Shown piece after piece: positions 1-52,600 of a stretch of 64,000 nt of DNA. How positions within the stretch are numbered: position 1 is the stretch's first letter; every line of letters starts with the position of its first letter. A program made the translations under genes and the position numbers. Source of the stretch: Naegleria gruberi (lineage: Eukaryota); the NCBI GenBank assembly GCA_000004985.1, contig GG738853.1. One strand, 5' to 3'. The notes beneath the pieces were generated by a model. That model had not been told where the DNA came from, ran no database searches, and saw only the letters and a list, made by a program, of their open reading frames with translations.

Positions 1-175
1 CAGGATATGATGTTAGTAAATTTATATTTAATACTAATTTAAATGTAAGTATTCATTAATTATTCAAAAATGATTCAAAAATAATTTATATAATAATTGT
101 TATGATAATATTACATGATAATAATTTAATTAATATTATTTAATAATAATTTAATCTAATAATTAATATAAATAG

Positions 176-1243
176 ATAAATTCAGGTAAATGTATATTTA
201 ATATAGGTGATAATGGACAAGTATTATTTGAAGAAATTGTAACATTTCAATATCAATCCAATGATAATTCTAATAATAATAATAATAATATAATAATACC
301 AATATCTAAAGATGAATCACAATGTAATATAATACCAACATCACCAACATCATCTTTATCTAATAGTAATATTAATAGTGTATTTAAATTAAATATAAAA
401 ACTATAATTGAAAATAATAAAATTAAATGTGAATATGATTGTAATAATATAGATTTAGAATTTGATTATAATGAATATATATGTAAACCAATTAATTGTT
501 CATCTAAATATTTAGATAAAATTATATTTAATTATAATTTATTAAAATGTGAAATACCAATACAATGTAATCAATTTACACAAATTTATAATTTACAAAA
601 TAATACATGTATAAATATAGTAAATAATATATATAGTAATGATATATTAAATAGTATTGAAAATATTAATTTTAAAAATATTGAATGTAATAATGGTATT
701 TTAAATAATTATTTTACATGTATTTGTAATGAAAATTATATTTCCTATTGGAATGATTCAATTTTAAATTTACAATTTTGTAAAATTAATTTATTATTAG
801 AAAATAATTTACAAAATTTAAATATTAATACAATTTTAGATTATATTTTACAATTAGATTCATATATTCAAATTATTTTAATTATTATTTTATTTTTATT
901 AATTTTAATTATTTTATTTTTATTTACTTTTACTTGTACTTGTTCATGTTATAAAAAATTAAATAGAAATTATTTTAATAAAATTAAATATGGTAAATTA
1001 GAAAAGAAATCTATTTTTAAATTATTATTTACTATTATATTTCAATGTGATTTTACAACAAGTGAATTTAATTTATCAGAAAAACATTTTAAAAAAATTA
1101 AAAAATTAAAATTAAAATATTTAAATAATAATAATATTGATAATATTGTTGATAACACATTAAATAATGATATTATTAGTAATAATAATAATAGTAATGA
1201 TAATGATATTAAATGTAATAATAATAATAATAATAACAATTGA
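176..1243 (+). pseudogene. Cryptic, frameshifted ORF for a Cys-rich single-pass membrane protein. It has a C-x-C-rich ectodomain, a TM segment around 870-950, and a K/N-rich tail ending NNNNNNNN-stop at 1241.
   Basis: Hand translation: frame 2 is open 176-611, frame 1 is open 601-667, and frame 2 is open 662-1243. That is 194 stop-free codons in roughly 90% AT DNA, which is far beyond chance. Both frame changes fall at A5-6 runs (about 596-601 and 658-663). No ATG or alt start lies in frame, so the ORF track did not list it. Codon usage is extremely AT-biased (tta/aat/aaa/tgt), unlike neighbouring genes. The 5' end may lie upstream of the window. Confidence 0.35.
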
Positions 1244-1878
1244 TAATAATGGTGGTAATCAACAAGTGTCAACAAATAACATCAATAATTGTCATTCTCA
1301 TCGTAATCATATTGTTTATAAACATCATACAATTAATGATGGTGATGATGATAACACTCAATCATTTAAACAATTTGAAAAACAAGCCTTCAATTATAAA
1401 AAGGCTAGGAAATAAAATCTTTTTTAAAATCATTTTGACTGAAGTTTACAATGTTATTATTTTGACAAGATATTATTAATGTTCGTTGTCATTATGCAAA
1501 TTATGAAGTTTAATTGTTGTATTGTACCTTTCAATAATAATGTATGCATTTAATATTCCCTCTATTATTTACAGGAGGTAATGACAATGATTAACTAATG
1601 GATAATGAAGGTGTTATTGTTGTCAAGTCGGACCATTTTGAAAAAGAGAATTGAAAGTATCAACATCCATCTTGTCTCTTCGTCACACCACAACAAACAA
1701 CAAAAACTAATTGAAGGCTTTGGTTTACGTTGTGTGGTGTGTGAATTTTGCTGTGTGATGATGACTTGTTGTGCGTGTGGGCGCAGAAGCCGGAACAAAA
1801 ATAGCGGGAAGTGGTTGTAAATAAAGAGGTTGTAACGAAGGAGAAGGGTTGACTCTCCAAAAAAAAAACCTCGAAAAA

Positions 1879-3815
<1,937 letters not shown>

Positions 3816-14134: not shown

Positions 14135-14779
14135 ATGGTCTCCCATAACAACGCAGTCCCACAAAGCAAGTGGAAGAAGCAATGGACTAACAGAGTCAAA
14201 TTGTTCTTCGATGGTCCAGCTAAGGCTAAGAAGAGACAAGAATTGAGAATCAAGAAGGCTAAGAATGTCTTCCCAAGACCAACCGAATTGTTGAGACCTG
14301 TTGTCAGACTCTCCGGAAGAAGATATAACAGAAGAGTTGCTTTGGGTAGAGGTTTCTCTGTTGAAGAATTGAAGCAAGCTGGTATTCCACTCCAATTCGC
14401 AAAGACTGTTGGTATTGCTATTGACACCAGAAGAAAGGATTTGAGCGAAGAAAGACTCCAAGCTAACGTCCAAAGACTCCAAGAATACAAGCAAAGAGTT
14501 GTTTTGTTCCCAAGAAAGAAGGGTACCGTTAAGAAGGGTCCAATTGCTGATGCTCAAGTTGCTAAGGCTGAATCTCAAGTCAGAGGTACCGTCCTCCCAG
14601 TCAAGAGAGAAGTCGCTGTTGTTGAAACCAGAGATATTTCTGCTCAAGAAAAGGAATCATCAGCTGTTAAGTCTATTGTCAAGGCCAGAAAGTCCATCAA
14701 GCAATTCTCTTATCTCCAAAAGAAGAAGAATAAGGCTGTTGTTGCTACCCCAGCTGGTGCCGTTGTTGCTGACGAATAA
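14135..14779 (+). CDS. RPL13: 60S ribosomal protein L13 (eL13).
   Basis: Colinear with yeast and human eL13 (KWKKQWTNRVKLFFDGPAKAKKR...RPVVR...RGFSVEELKQAGI...ANVQRLQEYK...VLFPRK). High-expression codons. Confidence 0.85.
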   Translation: MVSHNNAVPQSKWKKQWTNRVKLFFDGPAKAKKRQELRIKKAKNVFPRPTELLRPVVRLSGRRYNRRVALGRGFSVEELKQAGIPLQFAKTVGIAIDTRRKDLSEERLQANVQRLQEYKQRVVLFPRKKGTVKKGPIADAQVAKAESQVRGTVLPVKREVAVVETRDISAQEKESSAVKSIVKARKSIKQFSYLQKKKNKAVVATPAGAVVADE

Positions 14780-18889: not shown

Positions 18890-21800
18890 ATGCCCAAACA
18901 TTCCTTCACTGATTTGTTAATTGTTGCAATAAGTGATGATCATCATACTTCCGATGATGATAATGATGATGAACATGATTGTGATAAATTAATATTTAAA
19001 CATTTTCAACAAATTTCCTCTGCCAGAATTGAAAAAAACAAATCAATTTATAAGCATCTATTATTATTAGAAAACCGATTAGAAACCATTTCCACATTCA
19101 TTGAAAAATATCCATTTCCTGATAATGATTGTAAATTGGCAATTTTTAAAGCAGTGAGTAAAAATGGATTATTTCTGGAAGCAGCTTCTGCAAATTTGAG
19201 AAATGATGAGGAAATTGTAATGAGAGCTGTTAAAAAAAATGTAAATGCTATAGAGTTTGTGAGTGAAGAATTGAGAAGTGATAGAGAATTTGTGAAGAGG
19301 ATGATTGTTTCTGCAAGGGAAAGACTTGGTGGTACTTGTAGCTTTTTCAAACATCTCGACAAATTTCATGACGATGAGGAAATTGTAAAAATGATGGTGA
19401 AGAAATTTGCCAATTCTCTAGAATTTGTATCTACACGATTGAAGAATGAGAGGGAAATTATTTTGGAGGCTGTTAAAAGGAGAGGTTCATCTATTAGATT
19501 TGTACCAGAACATTTGATCGATAGAGAGGTGGTGTTAATATCTGTGAAAAGTTTTTTTCTGGCACTGAAATATGTACCTTCAGAGTTTTTAAATGATAGA
19601 GAAATTCTCTCTGCTGCTATTGACTTTTCAGGAATTTCAATGCAATATGCATCTGATGAGATTAAGAGTGATAGAGAGTTTGTTCTAGAAATGGTAAAAT
19701 TGAAGGGTGATTGTTATTGTTATATAGCAGGCCATCTCAAACTTGATAGGGAAATAGCCATAGAAGCTATAAAGACAAGTTCACAAAGTTTAAGATATGC
19801 ACCTGATCATTTCAAAGATGATGATGAAATTGTTTCAATAGCAGTTAGAAAAGATTTGTCCATTGTTTCTGCTGCTTCACAGAGATTTAGAGATAATGCT
19901 GATTTTATCTATGATATGGCTTCATCAGCATCTCGAGTGCTTGATTATATTACAAATTGTAATTATCCTTTGGCTAACGATAGAGAATTTAATCTAAGAT
20001 TGGTAGAAAAATTTGCCAATTACAGTGAGGATATTAAATATGCACTAAATCACGGAATAGAAAAGGAACTTATTTTGAAATTAATAGAGATAGATCCTGA
20101 TTGCTTTGTAAAGGTACAGAGTGAGGATATTAAGAATGATAGAAAATTATTATTCGATTTATTACCACATGGGGAGGAAATTCTTGACCTAATTCCTGAG
20201 AGTTTGAGTAATGACAGAGAACTCATTCTAAGAGCTGTGAAAATTTATCCTATCGCTTTAAAGATGGCTTCCGAGGAGCTGCGTGCTGATAGAGATATTG
20301 CTGTTCAGGCATTAATGTGTAGTGTTGATAACTTTGAGTTTTTATCAGAGGAATTAAGAAGTGATGGAAAGATAATAGAGGACATTCTTATTAGGGATGC
20401 CTATGTGTTGCAATTTGCGCCAGAATCATTTGGAAATGATAGAGAAATAATAACAACAGCTATCAGAAACTCATTCTCTAATACTTATTCTTTTATAGGG
20501 TATGAACTAAAGGAGGATAGGGAGCTTATTTTAGACTATGTAAAGAGATGTGGATCTATTGAAAATATTCTTCAAGATTTTCGAAACGATAGGGAAATTG
20601 TACTAACAGCTATTCAACAAAATGGAAGTGAATTTCAGTACGCCTCCAAATCTCTACGTAGTGATAGAGAGCTAGCATTAATTGCCGTCAGAAACTCATG
20701 TTCTTTAGAGCATGTACTTGTGGAAAAATTCGATAGAGAGCTTGTTTATGAAGCTTGCAAAATTGAATCAGAAAATCTTGAATATGCTTCAGAGTTTAGA
20801 GATGATGAAGATATTGTTATGGTGGCAGCTTGTTCTGATACTGGTTCAAAGTTTTTCCAGTACGCAAGTGATCGATTGAGAAATAATAGAGATTTTGTTT
20901 TGAAGGTTGCAAAGGTAAATGCTGGAATCATTCGATACATTTCAGAAGAGCTTTGTCAAGATAGGGAAATTATCATGACTGCTGTTTCAGCTGATGGAAA
21001 GTTATTAAAACATGCATCAGAAGAATTGAAAGGCGATAGACAAGTTGTGGAAAAGGCAATCAATTCATATTCTCGTTCCTTGAAATTTGCTTCTGAATAT
21101 TTAAGAAAAGATCAAGAGTTATTTGAAAAAGCTATATCAAAAGAATTAACCTATTCTCTCGCCACAAATAAGGAAATGATGAACAAAATTGATGTGAAAA
21201 TAATAGAGAAATGTGTGGTTGAACAAGGATATTCACTTAGTTATGTACCTGATTCTGTAAAAAGGAATAGAAGTCTTGTTATTAAGGCTGTAAATGCTGA
21301 CATGGATAATATTTTACATGTGCCACACGAGTTGATTGACAAGGAATTCATTATGGAATTGTCTCCAGCCAAGTTCAATATATTATTACTTCCACTCAAA
21401 TGGAGAAGAGATAGAGATATAGTATTGAAGGCATTGGAAAGTAATGGAAAAACAATAGTTTACCTTTCAGAGGAATTTAAAAATGAATTTAAAAACAACA
21501 GGGAAATATTACTGAAAGCAATGAAAACTGACAGCATTCCTTTCATTTATGCAAGTGAAGAATTACAAAATGATAGAGAATTTGTTTTGGAATCTGTTGC
21601 AACAAATGGAAAGGTATTAAATCACGTACCACTTGAATATCAGCTAGACAGAGAAATTGTCTTGACAGCTGTCAAAAATGATGGAAATTCTATTGAATTT
21701 GGAGCCACTTGCTTCATGAAAGATAGAGAAATTATGTGGAATGTAGTTCAAAACTTTTTATCAGAGAAAAATACATCCAATCCACTTATTTATGGCTCAT

Positions 21801-22087
21801 TTGAAATACGAAGTGATAGAGAACTAGTTCTGGAAGCTGTTCGACATGATTACAACGCCCTAGACTATGCTGCTCAAGAATTGTTATGTGATGAAGAATT
21901 TATGACCCAATGTGTGGAAATTAACATTAACAGTCTAATGTATGCCCATTATCAATTAAGATTCAACATTGATTTCCTTAAACGATTGAACAAGACAGAA
22001 ATTATTAGTGAAACAACTGATTTACATGACTGTATTGATATTGAAGGACTATTAGGATATTATCCAAAGTTAAAAGGTTTAATTTAA
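18890..22087 (+). CDS. Giant DUF4116-repeat protein of 1065 aa with about 33 tandem repeats of roughly 33 aa. It is intronless.
   Basis: The motif L(R/K)(N/S)DREIVLxAVKxNGxxLxYASEEL recurs from residue 100 to the C-terminus. Start context is aaaaaaaaATG. Confidence 0.8.
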   Translation: MPKHSFTDLLIVAISDDHHTSDDDNDDEHDCDKLIFKHFQQISSARIEKNKSIYKHLLLLENRLETISTFIEKYPFPDNDCKLAIFKAVSKNGLFLEAASANLRNDEEIVMRAVKKNVNAIEFVSEELRSDREFVKRMIVSARERLGGTCSFFKHLDKFHDDEEIVKMMVKKFANSLEFVSTRLKNEREIILEAVKRRGSSIRFVPEHLIDREVVLISVKSFFLALKYVPSEFLNDREILSAAIDFSGISMQYASDEIKSDREFVLEMVKLKGDCYCYIAGHLKLDREIAIEAIKTSSQSLRYAPDHFKDDDEIVSIAVRKDLSIVSAASQRFRDNADFIYDMASSASRVLDYITNCNYPLANDREFNLRLVEKFANYSEDIKYALNHGIEKELILKLIEIDPDCFVKVQSEDIKNDRKLLFDLLPHGEEILDLIPESLSNDRELILRAVKIYPIALKMASEELRADRDIAVQALMCSVDNFEFLSEELRSDGKIIEDILIRDAYVLQFAPESFGNDREIITTAIRNSFSNTYSFIGYELKEDRELILDYVKRCGSIENILQDFRNDREIVLTAIQQNGSEFQYASKSLRSDRELALIAVRNSCSLEHVLVEKFDRELVYEACKIESENLEYASEFRDDEDIVMVAACSDTGSKFFQYASDRLRNNRDFVLKVAKVNAGIIRYISEELCQDREIIMTAVSADGKLLKHASEELKGDRQVVEKAINSYSRSLKFASEYLRKDQELFEKAISKELTYSLATNKEMMNKIDVKIIEKCVVEQGYSLSYVPDSVKRNRSLVIKAVNADMDNILHVPHELIDKEFIMELSPAKFNILLLPLKWRRDRDIVLKALESNGKTIVYLSEEFKNEFKNNREILLKAMKTDSIPFIYASEELQNDREFVLESVATNGKVLNHVPLEYQLDREIVLTAVKNDGNSIEFGATCFMKDREIMWNVVQNFLSEKNTSNPLIYGSFEIRSDRELVLEAVRHDYNALDYAAQELLCDEEFMTQCVEININSLMYAHYQLRFNIDFLKRLNKTEIISETTDLHDCIDIEGLLGYYPKLKGLI

Positions 22088-22347
22088 TTGACAGAATCAA
22101 ATACTGCTTACATTGTCATCCTTATTCATCTTTGAGAAAATGCAAATACTTGAAAGTTGAGTTGCTATTTGAATAGTAAATTATTTGAAAATTGAATCAG
22201 TCAAGTTTCTTTAATGAAATCAGTTTTCCATCCAAATATGGAACCTTACATCTAACTTTTTTTGGTTTGTTCCAAATGAAAAACTATCGAAATGGTTTAA
22301 ATTAGCACCATCCTGGTTGAACTATTCCATCCAACAAAAACAAAAAA

Positions 22348-23319
22348 ATGAAAGTGAATCTAATCTTTTCAATTGCAATTCTACTCTTGCTTGCAATCCT
22401 CTCAGTTCAAGCAAGTGACAACTATCAAACTAAACCTCCAGTTGTCGTAGTCGACAAGTATCACAAGCCAAGAGTTTGTAAGAGAAAATGCTTAAAGCAC
22501 AAGTGGATTAAGAAGTGTTTGAAACATAAACTCGTTGGTCAAAAGAAGGTCTGTGATCAATATGCAATTGTTGGCGCTGGCAAATGTCTCAAACATAAGA
22601 AATATTCCAAATGTGACAAGTACAGCAAGCCAACAAAGAAGTGTGTCTTACATGCATACAAGATTGTTGGATGCGCCAAGAAGAAGTACTGGAAAGTTTG
22701 CGATTCTTATGGAACTAAGAAGATTTGTGTTAAGAAGGGTTTCAAGAAATTCTGTGCCAAACACAAGATTATCAACAAGTGTTTCAAGAAGGGATTTAAG
22801 AAGGTCTGTAAGAAATTCAAGAAGGTTCCAATCAAGAAGTGTGAAAAGAAGAAGATTTGTGACAAGTACACTGTTGATTCCTACAATAAGAAGGTTGCCA
22901 AATGTAGATATGTTAAAAAGTGCAAGATTGTTTCATGGGCAAAGAAATGTGCCAAGTATAAGAAGGTTAAATATTGTAAGGAGAGAAAATCTGTTAAGAA
23001 GTGTTGTCTCATTAAGAAGAAATTCTTCTGTGCCAAGCATAAGATCTTCAAGTTCTGTAAGCACAAGAAGACTATTTCCAAATGTGTCAAATATCAAAAG
23101 AAGAAGTATTGTGCCAAGACAATTATTATTCCTCCAAGATGTATCAAGAAGAAGTATTATAAGAAGTGTTTGAAACGTTCAAAGGGAAAGAAGATTTGTA
23201 AGAAATTTAAGTTGGTTGGTGGAAAGAAGAAGTGTTGCAAGTCAATCAAGAAGAAGATTTGTATCAAGAGAAAGACATGTAAGAAGGTATCAAAGCCAAT
23301 CATCAAACCATCCTTGTAA
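22348..23319 (+). CDS. Secreted, extremely basic Lys/Cys-rich protein (323 aa, about 28% Lys and 13% Cys) with a C-x(5-9)-C periodicity. It is intronless.
   Basis: A signal peptide (MKVNLIFSIAILLLLAILSVQA) is followed by KKC/KHK repeats. It uses high-expression codons (aag, tgt, ttc). Start context is aaaaaaATG. Confidence 0.7.
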   Translation: MKVNLIFSIAILLLLAILSVQASDNYQTKPPVVVVDKYHKPRVCKRKCLKHKWIKKCLKHKLVGQKKVCDQYAIVGAGKCLKHKKYSKCDKYSKPTKKCVLHAYKIVGCAKKKYWKVCDSYGTKKICVKKGFKKFCAKHKIINKCFKKGFKKVCKKFKKVPIKKCEKKKICDKYTVDSYNKKVAKCRYVKKCKIVSWAKKCAKYKKVKYCKERKSVKKCCLIKKKFFCAKHKIFKFCKHKKTISKCVKYQKKKYCAKTIIIPPRCIKKKYYKKCLKRSKGKKICKKFKLVGGKKKCCKSIKKKICIKRKTCKKVSKPIIKPSL

Positions 23320-23403
23320 ATTAAAATCATTACTTGATTTCCAAATATGTAAGATAATAAATGTACATTTGTGTAAATAAAAGAATAAATAGTTGTATTT
23401 ACA

Positions 23404-24999
23404 TTATTTTGAATTATTCACAACAGCAATCTCAGTTGAGGTTGACTTCTTTTTAGTGGAAGCTCCACTATTATCTAAACTTGTAATACCAATTACATCA
23501 GGAATTACAGGATTACTTGATGGGAGAGTTGTTTGAGTAATTTGTAATGGTTGCTTAATTTCAGATGATTCAAGAGCAGCAGGTTGTTCAGTAGATGCTG
23601 TTATAGCAGCTTGTTCCTCTGGTTTTTCTTCTGGTTTCTTTTCTTCTGTTGGTTTTTCTCCTTCAGGTGCAGGTTGTTCAGATGTTTGTTCTGGTGCATT
23701 TGGTGGTGGATGATAGAACCATGTTGGAGTTAATGAAACTTTAAGAGCTTCCCAAAGAGCAAATCCAGCATCATGTCGAACTTTTTGATTGGACAAAATT
23801 CCAGTAACAAACACTTCAGCATGTTGTTGAACATTTTGATCATCCATTACATTGTGAACAGTGTGCATTCCCAATTCTGATCCACTTTGTTTTACAACAT
23901 CATATAAAATTACAGAGGCAAATAGGTCTGCAACATGTTGTCTGAAAGCTTCATCTTTAAGTGCATTATTCAATAAAATAACCAAGTGATCTTTTGTTTC
24001 TGGTTTATCAATAATTTTCCAAGCAAATTCTGAAGCTACTTGTATAGTATATTCGTCTCGTAAAAGGTATAACGCTATTCTTTCTTTAGCAAATTGTGAA
24101 ACATATTCTTGAGTGATTGGATCTTGAAGAACTTGTAATAAAAGAGTAACTAGTAATTGTTGAGTTTCCTTTCTAGAAATTAAATCTTTCAAAAAATTGA
24201 CAGCATGTTCAGTAGTCTTTGCATCACTTAATACTTGTTGAACTACTGCCTTACTGAGTACTTCTGCACTCATTTGAACACTTTCTGATCCTAAAGATCT
24301 AGAGGCCACATCAGCACCATGTTGACTGAAGAAATTCTTAATATCTTCACTAAATAAGAAAATGAAAACAGCAAGACCAAGTGATGTTGTAACTAAAACT
24401 CTAAATGTTGAATAACCTCTTCTCTTTAACATCATATCCAATTCATTGGCTAAATTTCTAATTTTTTGTGTGTAAAAGTGATGTTCAGGATTGACCACAG
24501 CAGGAGGAACAGGATCACGAATTTGTGATGTCGGATTAGTAACAATTGGTTGTTGTTGCTGTGTTTCACCAATATTAGATTCTGTTATTGGTGGTGGTGT
24601 TGTTGTTGTTGATGTGGTTGGTGGTGTTGTTGTAGATGATTCATTCGTAGATGATGGTGATGTAATTTGTTCATCAACATTTGTTTTGATCTTTTCTTCT
24701 TCAAGAGGTGTAGAATTCACTTCTAAAGGCTTTTCTGTATTATTGTTAGATTTACTATCATCATTAGATAAATTTGATGAAGTAAAAGCAGGTTGTTTCT
24801 TTCTTGCTGAATTGACAATACAAATATGAAAGCCTTTTCTATTAATCATGTTCGGAACATTGAAATCACATAATGATGATTTCAAAGATCCTCCAAATCG
24901 CCCTCCTCCAACAATTGGACGATGAATTATCAATGATGAAGAAAAACTTGGAGCTGATTTCAATTTTCTTGCTAAGAATCGTGCGGCAAGTTTTTTCAT
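23404..24999 (-). CDS. Hypothetical 531-aa protein with a basic, presequence-like N-terminus, a T/S/P-rich linker, one TM helix and an acidic K/E/P-rich C-terminus.
   Basis: Long ORF with an A-rich start context. No recognised domain. Confidence 0.55.
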   Translation of the reverse strand: MKKLAARFLARKLKSAPSFSSSLIIHRPIVGGGRFGGSLKSSLCDFNVPNMINRKGFHICIVNSARKKQPAFTSSNLSNDDSKSNNNTEKPLEVNSTPLEEEKIKTNVDEQITSPSSTNESSTTTPPTTSTTTTPPPITESNIGETQQQQPIVTNPTSQIRDPVPPAVVNPEHHFYTQKIRNLANELDMMLKRRGYSTFRVLVTTSLGLAVFIFLFSEDIKNFFSQHGADVASRSLGSESVQMSAEVLSKAVVQQVLSDAKTTEHAVNFLKDLISRKETQQLLVTLLLQVLQDPITQEYVSQFAKERIALYLLRDEYTIQVASEFAWKIIDKPETKDHLVILLNNALKDEAFRQHVADLFASVILYDVVKQSGSELGMHTVHNVMDDQNVQQHAEVFVTGILSNQKVRHDAGFALWEALKVSLTPTWFYHPPPNAPEQTSEQPAPEGEKPTEEKKPEEKPEEQAAITASTEQPAALESSEIKQPLQITQTTLPSSNPVIPDVIGITSLDNSGASTKKKSTSTEIAVVNNSK

Positions 25000-25109: not shown

Positions 25110-26825
25110 TTAATCTTTCAAAGATGTAATGAAGGATGCAAATTCTGTATTGGAATTTTTCAATCTTTCGAATAAATCGGTCATGTCAATCAGACAATGT
25201 TGTTGAATTTTGTGAAATAGATTGGCAGGTGGTTTTTCAGTTAGTTGGGAAGTTATTTCAGAATTACATTGTTCAATTTTTGGAATGTTGAGCTCTAGGG
25301 GACTATTAATTGATAAGTACACTTGTAAAATGTGATTTGCAATCTTTTTTCTGTTTTTGGTTGACCTTTTGTATCTTTGAATATCTTTCCAACATTGTAA
25401 ACTCTCAGTGCAATAACTTCTTCTTGCAAAATCCAACATTATTTTAAACATCTTCTTATTTTTCAAAACTTTTTCAATATTTGATTCATTACTTTCATTG
25501 GAATTCAATTTTGTGTAATCGAAATAAATTGATCGAATTACTGGTATTGTACAACACATAAATAATTCAAAATACATGTAACCCCAAATGAAAAACCCAT
25601 AGGGAACATAATAATCTACCAATTCAGATATTACCTCAATACTTCCACATATAATAAATAATATTGCTGAGAGTAATTGAACTATGGTTACAATAAATGA
25701 TTCCTTCTTAATTCCCCACGTATCCTTATCTGCCTTAACACACAATGCAAGAAATATCAATTCCAAAATGACATAGCCAACTACCTCCAATCCAATAGTT
25801 AGAACAGTATAGAAAGTCATTGAACATCCATGTCTGAATTCAAACATACTCGATTCAACCACAAATATTCGATTGTTAGAATTGGAATTGAGTGCTTCAT
25901 CAATTCCTCCAAGAATGGCCCAAATAATAAATCCAAATATAAATGAACATAAATAAACTGTTCCCATAAATTTTGTACTGACTAGAAAATTGTAAATTTG
26001 TAATTTTCTCATTTCCTTTTTTAGAGAAGCCATATCTTTAACATCAGCAGCTGACCATGTTGTTGAAATAGTGTCATTATCTAAATCATCAGTACTGGCA
26101 CTAGATGTTCTATTAGATGAACCTCCATCAGAATGATATGATGAATTTTCAACTGGTTGTTGATGCTCATTATTTCCTTTGATAGTATTGGAAACTTCTT
26201 GTAAATTGACTCCATGTACTTGAAATGAATCCATTTTTGTAATGACAAGTTCTGCTCCACTATTTGGTGGTAAGCTTTCAATAGATTCCAATGTTAATTG
26301 TTGATCCACTAATTCATGTTTCTTTGATTCTGAATCAATTGTATTCGATTCAAATAGTTTCGTCTTGGTTAAATTAATCTTGTACATGAAGAAAGCTCTC
26401 ATAAATCTAAATATTAATGGCAATGCAATCGCCTGTGGGAATGTAAAGAAGCCAATTGTCATCAAACCACATGGAAATGTCTTGCTCGACACTATTCTCC
26501 TCAATGTCAACACAACAACAAACCAAATCGAAGCTCCCAAAGTAAAAAACAAATAAACTGGATTCCTAGCACTAACATAACTACTATTCCTCTTCCATAT
26601 TACTCCCAACAATGAAAAAACCAGTGTTATCAAATAAACTATTAGAAACGTTAATGTAATTGCGAAGGAAAAATAAGTGTCTGGACAAAGTCCATAATTT
26701 AAAGTTGCATTTGATGATTCCCTGCTCCAGGGCGTATTCATAAGTGAAGGATGACATCTACTAGCGTTTTGATTGTTATTATTGATTAATTGAAGAACAG
26801 AGAAGAGATTGTTAAATGGCGACAT
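25110..26825 (-). CDS. Seven-transmembrane receptor fused to a C-terminal RGS domain, in the style of fungal class VI GPCRs (GprK) or plant AtRGS1.
   Basis: Seven hydrophobic helices are followed by an RGS box: FKIMLDFARRSYCTESLQCWKDIQRYK...ILQVYLSINSPLELNI...FHKIQQHCLIDMTDLFERLKNS. Confidence 0.75.
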   Translation of the reverse strand: MSPFNNLFSVLQLINNNNQNASRCHPSLMNTPWSRESSNATLNYGLCPDTYFSFAITLTFLIVYLITLVFSLLGVIWKRNSSYVSARNPVYLFFTLGASIWFVVVLTLRRIVSSKTFPCGLMTIGFFTFPQAIALPLIFRFMRAFFMYKINLTKTKLFESNTIDSESKKHELVDQQLTLESIESLPPNSGAELVITKMDSFQVHGVNLQEVSNTIKGNNEHQQPVENSSYHSDGGSSNRTSSASTDDLDNDTISTTWSAADVKDMASLKKEMRKLQIYNFLVSTKFMGTVYLCSFIFGFIIWAILGGIDEALNSNSNNRIFVVESSMFEFRHGCSMTFYTVLTIGLEVVGYVILELIFLALCVKADKDTWGIKKESFIVTIVQLLSAILFIICGSIEVISELVDYYVPYGFFIWGYMYFELFMCCTIPVIRSIYFDYTKLNSNESNESNIEKVLKNKKMFKIMLDFARRSYCTESLQCWKDIQRYKRSTKNRKKIANHILQVYLSINSPLELNIPKIEQCNSEITSQLTEKPPANLFHKIQQHCLIDMTDLFERLKNSNTEFASFITSLKD

Positions 26826-32008: not shown

Positions 32009-33121
32009 TTAAAATGTTTCTTTATAGGTTCCATCATACCACAACTTCAAAGAAATCATTCCGAATGAAACTGTAACCAGTTGAGTGATTGAATTATGAG
32101 AAACACTTAATCTATAAACCATGTTTCGAACATGATCCCATCCTTCCATGAATTCCAATTGTCTATTGCAATGTTCATTAAACTCATTCAACTCCTCTCC
32201 TAAAAATGAATAATCATTGTCTTCGATAACTGGAAAACTGAAATCATTTGATGATGTACTACTTGTTGTTGATGTAGAATCGTTGAATATTGTTATTCCT
32301 TCCCCATCTTCAAATTCCGATTCATAATTATTATTATCTAAACTATATTGATTCAAAGTCCATCGTCCATTTCCGAATGTTGGTAAATATGGAAATTCAA
32401 ACACATATCTTGAAACATTTCCTTTTGTAAAACAGCCAATAGAATCGTATCCAAGAACCTTTCTACTTCTAATTGTACAATGTTCTCCATACATATCAAA
32501 GTAACTGGTAAATACATTTCTGGTACACTTTGAAACTGGCATACAGAATACAACTTTCTTGAATCCATTTGCTACTCTACCAATCATACGATCACAAATA
32601 TCCTTTTCCAATCTTTTCATTTCCAAAAAATGTAAGAAATCTTGTAGTTCATATTTGTTAAAGGTGAAAATCTTATCATCATCTGTATAACCGGAATAAA
32701 TTGATTCATGGTTAACATTATGTTGATTATTTTCAAGTGGAGAAGGAAGATATAATATTTTAGGTTCAATAGAAGTGAATGGATTATTGCCCTTTTTGAT
32801 TTGTTGCTTGTATATGAGAGATTTTTTAAAGATTGGAAAGTCATTTTCATCTCTAGGAAATTCTTCTTCTTCCTTCACTATGATGTTGTTGTTGTTGTTA
32901 TTGGTTAGCATTTGTTGTCTAGCCTTTTGTGTTGGCCATCTAACCATAGAAAGCTCCTCTCTATGCTTCTTGAATAAAGAGCGAAGTTTGAAAGAAGATG
33001 TACCAAGTACTTTAGCAGCTTGCTCTTGGCTTAAGTGAAGAACGGACTTCAGTTCATCCAATGTTAATTGCTTCTTCTTTGGTGAAGTTCCATCCAGTGG
33101 ATTGTAGTGAATGAAGGACAT
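32009..33121 (-). CDS. RWP-RK domain transcription factor. The track ORF extends to 33259 from a GTG; the first ATG is at 33121.
   Basis: RWP-RK box: LTLDELKSVLHLSQEQAAKVLGTSSFKLRSLFKKHREELSMVRWPTQKARQ. Confidence 0.6.
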   Translation of the reverse strand: MSFIHYNPLDGTSPKKKQLTLDELKSVLHLSQEQAAKVLGTSSFKLRSLFKKHREELSMVRWPTQKARQQMLTNNNNNNIIVKEEEEFPRDENDFPIFKKSLIYKQQIKKGNNPFTSIEPKILYLPSPLENNQHNVNHESIYSGYTDDDKIFTFNKYELQDFLHFLEMKRLEKDICDRMIGRVANGFKKVVFCMPVSKCTRNVFTSYFDMYGEHCTIRSRKVLGYDSIGCFTKGNVSRYVFEFPYLPTFGNGRWTLNQYSLDNNNYESEFEDGEGITIFNDSTSTTSSTSSNDFSFPVIEDNDYSFLGEELNEFNEHCNRQLEFMEGWDHVRNMVYRLSVSHNSITQLVTVSFGMISLKLWYDGTYKETF

Positions 33122-49691: not shown

Positions 49692-52600
49692 ATGAGTAAC
49701 CAGATCCCAATACAATTTACCGAACTTTTTAACCTTCAAAACTTGGGGGTAAACTCACAATCCATTTCTTTCACCACGGTTACACTCGAATCTGACAAAT
49801 TCGTCTGTGTTAGGGATCAGGTCTCACCCAATAAATCTATTCAAATAGTCGAAGTTGATAGTCAAAATGTTACCTCGAATAAAGTCAATGCTGACTCTGC
49901 CATTATGCACCCAACAGCTAAGGTGCTCGCTCTTAGAGGTATGTATTGTATAAGATTATATACAATATTAATCATGGTTAATAATAATAATAATATTATT
50001 TATAATTTTTTAATACAACAACAACAACAATATAGCTGGTAACACTATACAAATCTTCAACTTGGAAATGAAGGCAAAGATGAAGGAACACACAATGACT
50101 GAACAAGTCGTTTTTTGGAGATGGATCAACACTAACACTATTGCTATCATTACCGCTACCGCTGTTTATCACTGGTCTATGGATGGTCAAAGTGCACCAA
50201 AGAAGATGTTTGATCGTCATGCCAATCTTGCCAATTCCACAATCATCAATTATAGAACAGATTCTAATCTCCAATGGTTGCTTTTGATTGGTTTGACCAG
50301 AGCTGTAAGTATTAATAATAGAATGTGTGAAATGTTCTAACAAATTTAACAGGAAGACAACTCTACAAAGGGTGTTATGCAATTATATTCAGTAGAAAAG
50401 AAAGTTACCCAACCAATTGAAGGTCACGCTGCTTGCTTCGTTGATTACAAGCTTTCCAACAATTTTGTTACCACTGTTGTTTGTATTGCTTCAAGCACTC
50501 CACAAGGTGGTAAGCTTTTCGTTATGGAAGTCCCATCAAACAAGCCACAAGATGCTCCTGCTTTTGAAAGAAAGGCTGTTCCAATCCAATTCCCTGCTCA
50601 AGGTGATTTCCCTGTTGCTATGCAAGCTAGTGATAGACATGGTGTTTTCTTTATGATCACCAAATCAGGATTTTTGTATATGTATGATGTTGAATCAGCT
50701 ACACTGATCTTCAAGAATCGTATTAGTGATGATGCTTTGTTTATTACAGCACAAAGAGCTGGTGGTTTTATTGGTGTTAATAAGAGAGGTCAAGTTTTGT
50801 CTGTCACTGTTGATGATAATACCATTATTCCATATATTGCTAATCAATTGGGTGACCAAGGATTATCTTTGAAGATTTCTTCAAGAGCCAACATTGGTGG
50901 TAACATGGTTGGTGATTTGTATTTGCAACAATTCAATGCTCAATTGAACCAAATGAACGTTCAAGCTGCTATTGCTCTTGCTGCTGATTCTCCACAAGGT
51001 ATTTTGAGAACTCCAGATACTATTGCTAGACTCCAACGTTTGCCAGTTATGCAAGGTCAAAAGCCAGCTATTTCCCAATACTTCCAATACATTATTGAAA
51101 AGGGAAAGCTTAACACTTATGAATCACTTGAATTGGCTAAGATTGTTTTGCAAAAGCAAGGTGGTGTTGATTATTTGAAGAAGTTGTTGACTGATGACAA
51201 GATTGAAGGAAGCCAAGATTTGGGTGACTTTATTTCTGGTTATAGTCAAGAATTGGCTATGCAAATCTACTTGAAGGGTAAGGCTCACGACAAGATTATT
51301 GATTCTTTGTTGAGAATGGGTGATTACGAAAGAGTTTTGGCTTACTGTCAAAAGGTTGAATATACCCCTGACTATTATGATATCTTCAGAAAGTTATGCA
51401 TGGTTAACCCAGATAGTGCTGTCAAGTTTGCTTCAAAGATTCATGAAAATCCAGAAACAAGAATTGATCCTAATACTGTTATTGATCTTTTGGTTCAAGG
51501 TAATCTCATCAAGCAAGTTACTGCTTACCTTTTGGACATTCTTAAGAATGATAGACCAGAAGAAGGTGCTCTCCAAACTAGATTGTTGGAAATTAACTTG
51601 ACTTACAGTCCAATTCAAGTTGTTGATTCAATTCTCGGACAAAAGCTTGTTAATCATTATGATCGTATTAAGATTGCCAGATTGTGTGAAAAGGCTCAAC
51701 TCTTCCAAAGAGCTCTTGAAAATTACACTGACCCAGCTGATAGAAAGAGAGTTATCGTCAATACTCATGCTATTAATGTTGAATGGTTGATTAAGTGGTT
51801 CGAAGATGTTTCCAAGCAAGAAGTTTTCATGTATTTGAGAGAATTGATTAAGAATAAGAATAATCTCCAAGTCGTTGTTAAGGTTGCTACTGCCAACAGC
51901 AGTGTTTTGGAACCAGAAAATCTTATTCCAATCTTTGAAGAAGTTAAGAGTAACGAAGGTCTCTATTATTATTTGGGTTCTATTGTTAACTTCAGCCAAG
52001 ATCCTCAAGTTCACAACAAGTACATCATGGCTGCTACTAGAGTTAACCAACTTTCTGAAGTTGAAAGAGTTACTCGTGAAAGTGACTACTATGAAGCTGA
52101 TGTCATCAAAGAATTCTTGAAGGAAGCTAGATTGACTAACCAAATGCCACTCATTAACGTTTGTGACAAGCATGGTTACATTGATGAAATGGTTAGATAT
52201 CTCTACAGCAACAGTCAACTCAAGTTCATTGATATGTATGCCAAGAGTGTTAACCCAATCAGAACTCCAGAAGTTGTTGGTGCCCTCCTCGATGTTGATG
52301 CCAGTGAAGATTTTGTTAGAAATCTCATTATGGGTGTTGGTAATATGTGTCCAACTGAACCTTTGGTTGAAGAAGTTGAAAAGAGAAACAAGCTCAAGTT
52401 GTTGTTGCCATGGTTGGAAGCTCGTGTTAACGAAGGAAGTCAAGAACCAGGATGTCACAATGCTTTGGCTAAGATCTATATTGATCTCAGTCAAAATGCT
52501 GAAAACTTCTTGATTAACAATCAATTCTATGATTCCAGAGTTGTTGGTCAATACTGTGAAAAGAGAGACCCACACTTGGCCTTTGTTGCTTACAAGAGAG

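What the first reader, a model, noticed from the sequence alone, without database searches (positions are those of the whole stretch)
22348..23319. Secreted 323-aa protein made almost entirely of Lys and Cys, with highly expressed codon usage
A signal peptide is followed by about 300 aa with roughly 90 Lys and 40 Cys in a regular C-x(5-9)-C spacing (the KKC, KHK and FCAKHKI motifs recur). The gene is intronless and uses aag/tgt/ttc codons typical of abundant proteins here. It does not resemble known defensins, protamines or metallothioneins.
Basis: seen in the sequence. Interest (0 to 1): 0.55.

Follow-up and report, generated by a model that had tools for sequence, protein, structure and literature searches.

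The report
Naegleria lysine-rich cystine-ladder secreted protein
This is a real gene of a Naegleria amoeba for a secreted, extremely lysine-rich protein from an undescribed amoeba-specific family, predicted to fold as one very long two-stranded ribbon stapled by about 15 disulfide bridges; no solved structure resembles it, and its role (most likely a cross-linked wall or matrix component) is untested.

Summary
The ORF at 22348-23319 (+) is real: 323 aa with a classic signal-peptide N-terminus. It has 107 Lys (33%) and 32 Cys (10%), not the ~90 and ~40 reported. Net charge is about +104. The Cys repeat is mostly C-x8-C. The window is Naegleria DNA. The protein belongs to an uncharacterised family found only in Heterolobosea (N. 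gruberi, at least 5 paralogues; N. fowleri; N. lovaniensis; Willaertia). No family member matched Pfam, PDB sequences or PDB folds.

New finding: the Cys spacings of the N-terminal half mirror those of the C-terminal half (0/300 shuffles). This mirror symmetry holds in 10/10 homologues. Matching bulges occur in both arms, and partner cysteines are lost together. Two AlphaFold models (pLDDT 80 and 77) give one giant antiparallel β-hairpin with its tip at residues 172-185. This implies about 15 cross-strand disulfide rungs plus two spare Cys.

All 7 Asp residues sit in D-x-Y motifs. Codon bias is above all 18 ordinary ORFs in the window and below three housekeeping genes.

Function is inferred only. 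The most likely role is a rod-like polycationic, covalently cross-linked extracellular (cyst-wall or matrix) protein. Antimicrobial/agglutinin and adhesive roles remain open. No expression data were found.

The parts
22333..22347 (+). A-rich leader immediately upstream of the start codon (caaaaacaaaaaaa)
   Evidence: Read directly. In-frame stops upstream were seen.
22348..23319 (+). Complete intron-less CDS of 323 aa plus stop. The product has 107 Lys and 32 Cys. The mature chain is about 35.4 kDa, with pI 10.2 and net charge about +104.
   Evidence: Homologues are collinear over the full length.
22348..22416 (+). Predicted signal peptide, aa 1-23 (MKVNLIFSIAILLLLAILSVQA|S). The cleavage site is placed by the -3/-1 rule and was not run through SignalP.
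   Evidence: Hydropathy profile. The same M-K/R plus hydrophobic N-terminus is seen in P0001, P0003, P0005, P0006, P0008, P0022 and P0026.
22417..22476 (+). N-terminal tail, aa 24-43, with two D-x-Y motifs (DNY, DKY). It has low confidence in the model.
   Evidence: pLDDT below 50 for residues 23-44.
22477..22860 (+). Ascending arm of the predicted hairpin, aa 44-171. It carries 15 Cys at positions 44, 48, 57, 69, 80, 89, 99, 109, 118, 127, 136, 145, 154, 165 and 171.
   Evidence: AF2 strands E48-63, E66-75, E80-92 and E96-171.
22861..22902 (+). Hairpin tip loop, aa 172-185 (DKYTVDSYNKKVAK), containing two D-x-Y motifs.
   Evidence: This is the only long non-strand, low-pLDDT segment in the middle of the model. 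It is also the centre of the Cys mirror symmetry.
22903..23280 (+). Descending arm of the hairpin, aa 186-311, with 17 Cys. The predicted rungs are 171-186, 165-192, 154-201, 145-210, 136-219/220, 127-228, 118-237, 109-246, 99-255, 89-265, 80-274, 69-284, 57-296/297, 48-305 and 44-311.
   Evidence: AF2 strands E186-261, E265-277, E281-290 and E293-308, with breaks that mirror those of the ascending arm. Segment lengths are equal in the two arms. Partner cysteines are lost together.
23002..23007 (+). CC doublet, aa 219-220. One Cys is surplus to the ladder and is a candidate for an intermolecular disulfide.
   Evidence: Unpaired Cys in the ladder matching. One or two spare Cys remain in every full-length homologue.
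23233..23238 (+). CC doublet, aa 296-297. This is the second surplus Cys.
23281..23319 (+). Short basic C-terminal tail (KKVSKPIIKPSL) and stop codon. It has no hydrophobic GPI or transmembrane signal.
   Evidence: pLDDT is below 50 for residues 312-323.
23356..23389 (+). Three AATAAA hexamers in the 3' flank, which are candidate polyadenylation signals.

Best explanation
The ORF is a genuine, intron-less Naegleria gene. Its product enters the secretory pathway through a cleaved signal peptide.

The mature ~300-aa chain belongs to an uncharacterised family restricted to Heterolobosea. I infer that the whole chain folds back on itself into one very long two-stranded antiparallel β-ribbon. Each arm has about 128 residues, giving a rod of up to ~40 nm. 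The ribbon is pinned by about 15 cross-strand disulfide 'rungs' (a cystine ladder), with the tip at residues 172-185.

On this scaffold the window protein carries an extreme polycationic coat (33% Lys, about +104). It also carries two cysteines surplus to the ladder. Every one of its Asp residues lies in a D-x-Y motif, and these motifs are concentrated in the tails, the tip and just after rung cysteines.

Most likely mechanism (inferred, not shown): a protease-resistant, rod-shaped extracellular structural protein, most plausibly of the cyst wall or another secreted matrix. It would bind anionic polymers electrostatically. It would become covalently locked into a network through the spare cysteines and through Tyr and/or Lys cross-links.

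Shown: the gene, the family, the mirror-symmetric Cys pattern, the AF2 hairpin, the D-x-Y enrichment and the codon bias. Inferred: the actual disulfide connectivity, secretion, location and function.
For: Gene and family:
- The ORF and its composition are established.
- Homologues were found in N. gruberi NEG-M (NAEGRDRAFT_76199, 67458, 64980, 66117, 57793), N. fowleri FDP41_004030, N. lovaniensis C9374_009239 and Willaertia magna ABK040_005866, plus metagenome fragments. The profile search of 1.84 billion representatives listed 18 hits. The four looked up beyond the query members were Naegleria, Willaertia or unnamed metagenome sequences; the rest are short unnamed fragments with the same Cys pattern.
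- Cys columns are conserved along the whole length.

Secretion:
- The signal-peptide-like N-terminus is conserved in the paralogues.

Hairpin ladder:
1. The AF2 model built on a 22-sequence alignment has mean pLDDT 79.8, with blocks at 83-95 over residues 60-170 and 190-300. It shows uninterrupted strands E96-171 and E186-261. The strand breaks mirror each other: 93-95/262-264, 76-79/278-280 and 64-65/291-292.
2. The N-half Cys spacings equal the reversed C-half spacings. The mirror cost is 12 against a shuffle mean of 28.8 (0/300 shuffles). The same result holds for P0003, P0005, P0008 and P0025. The mirror cost is lower than the direct-repeat cost in 10/10 homologues.
3. The irregular segments match in the two arms. 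A 13/13 segment has L-V-G in both arms and an 11/11 segment has Pro in both. P0005 shows 17 against 18, and P0008 shows 15 against 21 with D-x-Y loops in both arms.
4. P0003 lacks both C44 and C311. The rung 171-186 is either present on both arms or absent on both.
5. The divergent, weakly basic P0012 gives the same global hairpin, with six mirrored strand breaks.

Cross-linking and matrix idea:
- One or two Cys surplus to the ladder remain in every full-length member.
- In the window protein 7 of 7 Asp lie in D-x-Y, against 0.37 expected (0/20000 shuffles). The motif is similarly enriched in six paralogues. The N. fowleri member ends in (I-D-S-Y-K-P)x4.
- All family members are basic, with pI 9.2-10.8.
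- By analogy, lineage-specific secreted Cys-rich proteins, some with Thr/Lys/His-rich or Thr/Lys/Cys-rich parts, together with a laccase, are the abundant cyst-wall proteins of Acanthamoeba (PMC6541295).

Expression proxy:
- The codon score lies above all 18 ordinary ORFs of the window.
Against: - There is no expression, localisation or biochemical evidence of any kind. Literature and supplement searches for the gene identifiers returned nothing.
- The disulfide connectivity is inferred from spacing and from AF2. I could not inspect coordinates or the PAE, and pTM is low (0.32), as expected for a rod.
- A rung period of 9 is odd. In a perfectly regular antiparallel ribbon, successive rungs would therefore alternate between non-H-bonded and H-bonded pair sites. 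By established knowledge, cross-strand disulfides strongly prefer the non-H-bonded sites. The real geometry must therefore include bulges or strained/diagonal disulfides.
- Cross-strand residue pairs show no avoidance of Lys-Lys: 15 observed against 17.5 expected, P=0.19. The isolated ribbon would therefore be strongly self-repelling unless it is bound to a polyanion.
- The D-x-Y motif is absent from the long P0012/P0026 subfamily.
- Strong codon bias fits a constitutively abundant trophozoite product at least as well as a cyst-specific one.
- The cyst-wall assignment rests on analogy only.
Confidence: 0.4

Rival explanations
1. Antimicrobial or prey-capturing polycation. The ladder hairpin would be a giant relative-in-principle of cationic β-hairpin peptides. 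It would be secreted, or delivered to phagosomes, to bind LPS, teichoic acids or anionic lipids. There it would agglutinate or permeabilise the bacteria that Naegleria eats.
For: - The protein has extreme positive charge and a predicted disulfide-stapled β-hairpin.
- β-hairpin AMPs are defined as cationic single hairpins cyclised by disulfides (PMC13001179).
- Codon bias is consistent with an abundant trophozoite product.
- The organism is a bacterivore (established knowledge).
Against: - β-AMPs are 11-25 aa long and Arg-enriched. This protein is 300 aa and Lys-rich (107 K against 7 R).
- No amphipathic face is evident, because the odd period flips faces at every repeat.
- Spare cysteines and conserved D-x-Y clusters are not features an AMP needs.
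- The family includes weakly basic 700-aa members.
- The Cys scaffold is conserved across genera, rather than evolving fast as many AMPs do.
Confidence: 0.25
2. Substrate adhesive or 'footprint' glue. Lys together with Tyr (possibly oxidised to DOPA) in D-S-Y-K-P-like motifs would displace surface cations and stick trophozoites or cysts to negatively charged mineral or glass surfaces.
For: - The protein combines high Lys with conserved Tyr motifs, including tandem I-D-S-Y-K-P in the N. fowleri paralogue.
- Recalled from memory, not tested: mussel foot proteins combine Lys, DOPA and Pro in short repeats.
Against: - There is no evidence for Tyr hydroxylation in Naegleria.
- D-x-Y motifs are few (7) relative to true adhesive proteins.
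- A rigid disulfide ladder is not a feature of known wet adhesives.
- Nothing in the data points specifically to adhesion.
Confidence: 0.1
3. Polyprotein precursor. The chain would be cut at its many KK/KR sites into small disulfide-linked, two-chain cationic peptides. Naegleria is known to release several pore-forming peptides from a single precursor (established knowledge; not checked here).
For: Dibasic sites are abundant, and the organisation is repetitive with period 9.
Against: - The repeats are not near-identical units separated by spacers.
- The mirror symmetry spans the entire chain, which argues for a single folded unit.
- Lys is spread everywhere rather than clustered at unit boundaries.
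Confidence: 0.06
4. Thiolate metal-binding (metallothionein-like) or intracellular polyanion-packaging (protamine-like) protein. The cysteines would be reduced and the hydrophobic N-terminus would not act as a signal peptide.
For: The protein has high Cys and high basic content.
Against: - The N-terminus looks like a signal peptide and is conserved in the paralogues.
- There are no CxC or CxxC clusters: the only short spacings are one C-x3-C and two CC doublets, and the dominant gap is x8.
- There are 31 aromatic residues, which is atypical for metallothioneins.
- The protein is Lys-rich rather than Arg-rich.
- There is no Pfam match to either family.
Confidence: 0.03
5. Not a gene: a chance ORF in low-complexity, AAG-rich DNA.
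For: The composition is strongly biased. Overlapping alternative-frame ORFs exist at 22535-23173 (+) and 22881-23090 (-).
Against: - The ORF runs for 323 codons in 31% GC DNA.
- Full-length homologues at 25-76% identity in at least four species conserve all the ladder cysteines.
- No DNA-level tandem repeat is present.
- Codon bias is in frame.
Confidence: 0.01

Closest known systems
Cationic β-hairpin antimicrobial peptides with cross-strand disulfides (protegrin, tachyplesin, gomesin, arenicin, θ-defensin 'cystine ladder')
   Same: Both are predicted to be a single antiparallel β-hairpin held by nested cross-strand disulfides. Both are strongly cationic and both are secreted.
   Different: The known peptides have 1-4 disulfides and 11-25 residues and are Arg-enriched (PMC13001179). 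This protein has about 15 rungs and about 300 residues, is Lys-rich, has a rung period of 9 rather than 2, and shows no sequence or Pfam relationship. It is a resemblance of principle, not family membership.
Lineage-specific Cys-rich cyst-wall proteins of other amoebae (Acanthamoeba Leo 8-Cys lectins with Thr/Lys/His-rich spacers, Jonah with a Thr/Lys/Cys-rich domain; Entamoeba Jacob 6-Cys lectins)
   Same: All have a signal peptide and are built from Cys-rich modules. All are restricted to one protist lineage and form multigene families. Some members are basic and Lys-rich (PMC6541295).
   Different: Those proteins have compact 6- or 8-Cys domains separated by spacers, and their glycan binding and cyst-specific expression are demonstrated. 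Here a continuous ladder spans the whole chain. There is no sequence similarity. Glycan binding and stage of expression are untested.
Cysteine-periodic wall or tube structural proteins of other protists (Cryptosporidium/Toxoplasma oocyst wall proteins; microsporidian polar tube protein PTP2). Recalled from memory, not tested.
   Same: These are secreted proteins with cysteines at roughly regular ~10-residue intervals (oocyst wall proteins), or basic Lys-rich proteins with conserved Cys (PTP2). They build disulfide-cross-linked resistant extracellular structures.
   Different: They belong to different domain families and have far lower Lys content. No whole-chain mirror symmetry has been reported for them. 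No Pfam match of this family to them was found.
Tyr/Lys-rich quinone-tanned or dityrosine-cross-linked precursors (trematode eggshell proteins with G-Y-D-K-Y-type repeats, mussel foot proteins, Eimeria oocyst-wall Tyr-rich proteins). Recalled from memory, not tested.
   Same: Both have short Asp/Lys/Tyr/Pro motifs (here D-x-Y and I-D-S-Y-K-P) in a secreted Lys-rich protein. This chemistry would suit Tyr-Lys or Tyr-Tyr cross-linking.
   Different: Those proteins are largely disordered, Cys-poor and far richer in Tyr or Gly. No oxidase partner and no modified Tyr are known for this family.

Membership tests
Unnamed heterolobosean Cys-ladder family (NAEGRDRAFT_67458 / 64980 / 66117 / 76199, FDP41_004030, C9374_009239) | Significant full-length sequence similarity with conserved Cys columns | tested here: met
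   E-values were 3.8e-83 to 7.7e-14 with the single sequence and 1e-131 to 2e-7 with the profile. Eleven ladder Cys of the window protein (C57 to C154) plus C186, C201 and C210 are invariant across 8 members.
Unnamed heterolobosean Cys-ladder family | Signal peptide, then N- and C-halves with mirror-symmetric Cys spacing (end signature 4,10,12,11,9,10 ... 10,9,10,12,9,7) | tested here: met
   The window protein shows 4,9,12,11,9,10 ... 10,9,10,12,(1)8,6.
β-hairpin antimicrobial peptides | Length 11-25 residues | tested here: not met
   The mature chain is about 300 aa. The criterion is taken from PMC13001179.
β-hairpin antimicrobial peptides | Single antiparallel hairpin cyclised by two or more Cys pairs; cationic | tested here: inconclusive
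   This is predicted by AF2 and by the Cys mirror symmetry, and the charge is +104. The disulfide connectivity is not determined experimentally.
β-hairpin antimicrobial peptides | Arg enriched over Lys | tested here: not met
   There are 107 Lys against 7 Arg.
β-hairpin antimicrobial peptides | Antimicrobial, membrane-disrupting activity | not testable with these tools
   This requires recombinant protein and MIC or leakage assays.
Defensins and other curated Cys-rich families (Pfam) | Match to a family profile | tested here: not met
   There were 0 Pfam families at E<=1 for the window protein and for 6 of 8 homologues. The other two had only chance-level hits at E 0.04-0.6, well below the gathering cut-offs.
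Metallothioneins | Cytosolic, with clustered CxC/CxxC/CC motifs and few or no aromatic residues | tested here: not met
   The N-terminus is signal-peptide-like. The dominant Cys gap is x8, with only two CC doublets. The protein has 17 Tyr, 11 Phe and 3 Trp.
Protamines / nuclear basic proteins | Arg-rich, nuclear, without a signal peptide | tested here: not met
   The protein is Lys-rich (107 K, 7 R) and has a hydrophobic cleavable-type N-terminus.
Amoeba cyst-wall lectins (Leo, Jacob, Luke, Jonah) | Their characteristic domains (8-Cys, 6-Cys chitin-binding, CBM49, choice-of-anchor A) | tested here: not met
   No Pfam domain was found. The Cys pattern is a continuous period-9 ladder, not 6- or 8-Cys modules.
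Amoeba cyst-wall proteins (functional class) | Encystation-specific expression and presence in purified cyst walls | not testable with these tools
   No Naegleria data set that I could read lists the family's identifiers. By inference, trypsin-based proteomics would miss a protein with Lys about every third residue.

The most novel reading that the evidence does not exclude
The family would represent a previously unrecognised type of fibrous protein: a single chain folded into a ~30-40 nm two-stranded β-ribbon stapled by 14-19 consecutive disulfide rungs (a 'cystine-ladder rod'). With its polylysine coat, spare cysteines and D-x-Y tyrosines, it would be the covalently cross-linked, protease-resistant scaffold of the Naegleria cyst wall. 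That includes the wall of the pathogen N. fowleri, where FDP41_004030 would be a wall-specific marker or target.
Probability: 0.25. Interest if true: 0.75.

Novelty: new variant of a known kind. Interest (0 to 1): 0.6.

Why it matters

Biologically, the molecular composition of the Naegleria cyst wall and secreted matrix is essentially uncharted. This family is conserved in N. fowleri. It would be nearly invisible to tryptic proteomics, so it may have been systematically overlooked. A wall-specific, lineage-restricted protein would be useful as a diagnostic or disinfection-relevant target.

If the protein is instead an antimicrobial or agglutinin, it would be a new kind of prey-handling effector in a bacterivorous protist.

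All of this rests on prediction. Without expression or biochemical data, the finding is a well-defined lead rather than a discovery.

Tried and rejected
- Pfam scans of the window protein and eight homologues found nothing meaningful.
- A PDB sequence search with the family profile at E<=10 gave 0 hits.
- Foldseek against the PDB with both models gave no hit at E<0.1. The weak hits were long pore-toxin hairpins, which only confirms the shape of the model.
- The AFDB50 library was unavailable.
- Exact-sequence contig look-ups for the window protein, P0001, P0002 and P0003 found nothing on record. P0004 gave only a 3.9-kb metagenome contig.
- A search with the N-terminal 4-Cys-repeat region of the long paralogue NAEGRDRAFT_57793, intended to find a fusion-partner clue, returned nothing, not even the query itself. 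This is a limitation of the word index.
- Literature searches by gene identifier, for 'Naegleria + lysine-rich/cysteine-rich', and for Naegleria cyst-wall composition and cyst transcriptomes gave nothing on this family.
- Supplements of the N. gruberi/N. fowleri copper proteomics paper and of the N. fowleri cyst RNA-seq paper do not list the identifiers.
- The 1967 chemical analysis of the N. gruberi cyst wall, which I recall from memory, is not held.
- A DNA-level tandem-repeat origin is rejected.
- A direct-repeat (parallel) relation of the two halves is rejected in favour of the mirror relation.
- The cross-strand residue-pair preference test (Lys-Lys avoidance, hydrophobic pairing) gave no signal either way.
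- There are no paralogues elsewhere in the window and no tRNAs.
Full report
**Observation**

Window 22348..23319 (+) is an uninterrupted ORF of 323 codons running from ATG to TAA. An in-frame stop lies upstream. The leader is A-rich, and three AATAAA hexamers lie 37-65 nt downstream of the stop.

The translation has 107 Lys (33%), 32 Cys (10%), 26 Ile, 25 Val and 17 Tyr, with only 9 acidic residues.

The gaps between cysteines are mostly 8 residues (period 9). The range is 3 to 14, and there are two CC doublets. KKC occurs 8 times, KHK 6 times and FCAKHKI twice.

The N-terminus is M-K, followed by a 16-residue hydrophobic core and then V-Q-A|S. It is the only hydrophobic segment of the protein. 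The C-terminus has no hydrophobic tail. The mature chain is about 35.4 kDa, with pI 10.2 and net charge about +104.

At the DNA level there is no real tandem repeat, so the periodicity is old and maintained at the protein level. The two ORFs that overlap in other frames are by-products of the composition.

**Source organism and family**

The closest database proteins are 'predicted proteins' of Naegleria gruberi NEG-M. NAEGRDRAFT_76199 matches over the C-terminal 152 aa at 88% identity. That model is a chimera: a SAM/PB1 N-terminus is fused to the second half of this protein, which is evidently a gene-model or assembly error. NAEGRDRAFT_67458 (301 aa) aligns end to end at 47%.

A profile search of 1.84 billion representative proteins listed only 18 hits. 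Look-ups identify these as NAEGRDRAFT_64980 and 66117, N. fowleri FDP41_004030, N. lovaniensis C9374_009239, Willaertia magna ABK040_005866 and unnamed soil or water metagenome fragments. A second profile search added NAEGRDRAFT_57793. This belongs to a 700-aa subfamily with an extra N-terminal region of 4-Cys repeats of about 40 aa.

The window is therefore from a Naegleria close to, but not identical with, NEG-M (31% GC). The protein belongs to a multigene family seen so far only in Heterolobosea. None of nine members matches any Pfam family at a meaningful level. The family profile hits no PDB sequence at E<=10. All members are basic (pI 9.2-10.8), and the window protein is the most Lys-rich.

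**Architecture**

A confident-looking model of a repetitive sequence could be an artefact, so I looked for independent evidence in the sequences themselves.

1. Mirror spacing. Reading outward from the 172-185 loop, the Cys spacings of the two halves are the same. They give 15 nested pairs (171-186, 165-192... 48-305, 44-311) and leave two surplus Cys, one from each CC doublet. The mismatch cost of this mirror matching is 12, against 28.8 ± 3.0 for shuffled spacings (0 of 300 shuffles as good). The same result holds for P0003, P0005, P0008 and P0025. In 10 of 10 homologues the mirror matching beats a direct-repeat matching.
2. Matched irregularities. The non-canonical segments coincide in the two arms. 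A 13-residue segment carries L-V-G in both arms, and an 11-residue segment carries Pro in both. In P0005 a 17-residue gap faces an 18-residue gap. In P0008 a 15-residue gap faces a 21-residue gap, and both contain inserted D-x-Y loops.
3. Co-loss of partners. P0003 lacks both C44 and C311. The tip rung 171-186 is present on both arms or absent on both arms in every sequence.
4. Independent model. A second AF2 model of the most divergent and only weakly basic member, P0012 (25-28% identity), again gives a whole-chain hairpin, with six mirrored strand breaks around residue ~162. It also has no PDB counterpart.

I regard the nested ladder topology as likely (about 0.7) but not proven.

Three caveats apply. 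First, I could not inspect coordinates. Second, the rung period is odd, so a perfectly regular ribbon would place alternate rungs at H-bonded pair sites, which cross-strand disulfides normally avoid (established knowledge). Bulges or strained/diagonal bridges must therefore exist. Third, opposite residues show no avoidance of Lys-Lys pairs (15 observed against 17.5 expected), so the free ribbon would be electrostatically stressed unless it is neutralised by a polyanion.

**Other features**

Every one of the 7 Asp residues is followed two positions later by Tyr (D-x-Y). Chance would give 0.37 such motifs (0 of 20000 shuffles). The same enrichment is seen in six paralogues, but not in the long P0012/P0026 subfamily. 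The motifs lie in the N-terminal tail, in the hairpin tip and directly after rung cysteines (C-D-x-Y). In other members they fill inserted loops and C-terminal tails. For example, the N. fowleri protein ends in I-D-T-Y-K-P-A followed by three I-D-S-Y-K-P repeats. Each full-length member has one or two Cys in excess of the ladder.

**Codon usage**

AAG (78%), TTC (73%) and other C-ending codons are preferred. The same preference is shown by the three obviously abundant housekeeping genes in the window: an ATP-synthase/V-ATPase α/β-family subunit, ribosomal protein L13e and clathrin heavy chain. On a log-likelihood scale trained on those three genes versus 18 other ORFs, the gene scores +0.10, or -0.01 without Lys. 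That is above all 18 ordinary ORFs (-0.11 to -1.16) and below the housekeeping genes (+0.46 to +0.69). This is an indirect hint of substantial expression and nothing more.

**Function**

No data set I could reach mentions any member of the family. A protein with Lys about every third residue would be cut by trypsin into peptides too short to identify, so it is likely to be missed by standard proteomics (inference).

What must be explained is the following:
- a secreted, extremely stable rod;
- an enormous positive charge;
- spare cysteines;
- conserved Asp-x-Tyr clusters in the flexible parts;
- a multigene family in cyst-forming heteroloboseans;
- biased codons.

The reading that accounts for most of these is a structural, covalently cross-linked extracellular component, most plausibly of the cyst wall. 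It would be held to anionic wall polymers by charge and locked in place by intermolecular disulfides and Tyr/Lys chemistry. The analogy is with other amoebae, whose abundant cyst-wall proteins are lineage-specific secreted Cys-rich proteins, some with Lys-rich parts, accompanied by a laccase (PMC6541295). From memory, further analogies are the Cys-periodic oocyst-wall proteins, Lys/Cys-rich polar-tube proteins and Tyr/Lys-tanned eggshell proteins.

I give this functional reading about 0.35-0.4.

The main rival (0.25) is an antimicrobial or bacteria-agglutinating polycation. The predicted fold is in principle a giant version of cationic β-hairpin peptides. However, that class is defined by 11-25 residues and Arg enrichment (PMC13001179), so this protein is not a member. 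Its spare Cys and D-x-Y motifs are also unexplained on that view.

An adhesive role (0.1), a polyprotein precursor (0.06), a metal- or nucleic-acid-binding intracellular protein (0.03) and a non-gene (0.01) are less likely, for the reasons listed under rival explanations.

**Verdict**

The interpretation (a secreted, unclassified Lys/Cys-rich protein) is broadly right but untested for expression.

The added value is twofold. First, the protein belongs to a heterolobosean-specific family. Second, there is sequence-based evidence, independent of AlphaFold and agreeing with it, for a whole-chain cystine-ladder hairpin without a solved counterpart.

Homologues are already in public databases as 'predicted proteins', and I found no description of the family. 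I rate it a new variant of a known kind (disulfide-laddered hairpins and Cys-rich protist wall proteins). There is roughly a one-in-four chance that it is a genuinely new type of fibrous wall protein. Interest is 0.6.

Noticed in passing
P0002 (NAEGRDRAFT_76199) versus window 22861-23316: The N. gruberi NEG-M reference model for the orthologue is chimeric. A SAM/PB1-domain N-terminus (about 290 aa) is fused to the C-terminal 152 aa of this Lys/Cys-rich protein. In the window the upstream neighbour is a DUF4116 protein, not a SAM/PB1 gene. This is probably a gene-model or assembly error in the reference.
   Followed up: partly
window 18890-22087 (+): The upstream neighbour is a 1065-aa protein made of 24 DUF4116 repeats (Pfam E=9e-193). 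Its function is unknown.
   Followed up: partly
window 2124-3815 (+), 14135-14779 (+), 50377-54915 (+): Three housekeeping genes (an ATP-synthase/V-ATPase α/β-family subunit, ribosomal protein L13e and clathrin heavy chain) show the strongest codon bias in the window (AAG 87-97%). I used them as the internal reference for 'highly expressed' codon usage.
   Followed up: yes
window 22348-23319 and paralogues P0001, P0003, P0005, P0006, P0008, P0022: Asp occurs almost only as D-x-Y, usually as [V/I/C]-D-x-Y. In paralogue tails the motif forms tandem I-D-S-Y-K-P repeats. It is absent from the long subfamily (P0012, P0026). Its chemical role is unexplained; candidates are Tyr cross-linking, Tyr modification or glycan binding.
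   Followed up: partly
P0026 (NAEGRDRAFT_57793), P0025, P0019/P0021, residues ~100-380: A 700-aa subfamily carries the ladder domain at its C-terminus. Ahead of it lie about seven repeats of a ~40-aa 4-Cys module (Cys spacing 18-5-5-8/12, often starting 'CP') and a helical-looking N-terminal segment. There was no Pfam match, and the word-index search found nothing.
   Followed up: partly
window 1-2000: This is a very AT-rich stretch (GC 19.8%, against 31% for the window) full of AAT microsatellites and short AT-rich tandem repeats. No long ORF is present.
   Followed up: partly
window 32009-33121 (-): A 370-aa ORF has an N-terminal RWP-RK-like domain. It scores 28.7 bits, just under the Pfam gathering cut-off of 29.3. 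It is a possible transcription factor.
   Followed up: no
window 25110-26825 (-) and 23404-24999 (-): The downstream neighbours on the opposite strand are two ORFs. One is a 571-aa protein with a C-terminal RGS domain (E=1e-10) and several hydrophobic stretches that look like membrane spans (not scored here). The other is a 531-aa Thr/Pro/Ser-rich protein with no family match.
   Followed up: no
L001 (ENA metagenome contig, 3936 bp) 29-970: P0004 clusters at 90% or more identity with NAEGRDRAFT_64980 but has a different N-terminus (MHFFVIFDCVIGNIS...). It starts 29 nt from the contig end. The called start may lie in an intron or be a truncation artefact. This hints that some paralogues, unlike the window gene, contain an intron.
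   Followed up: no
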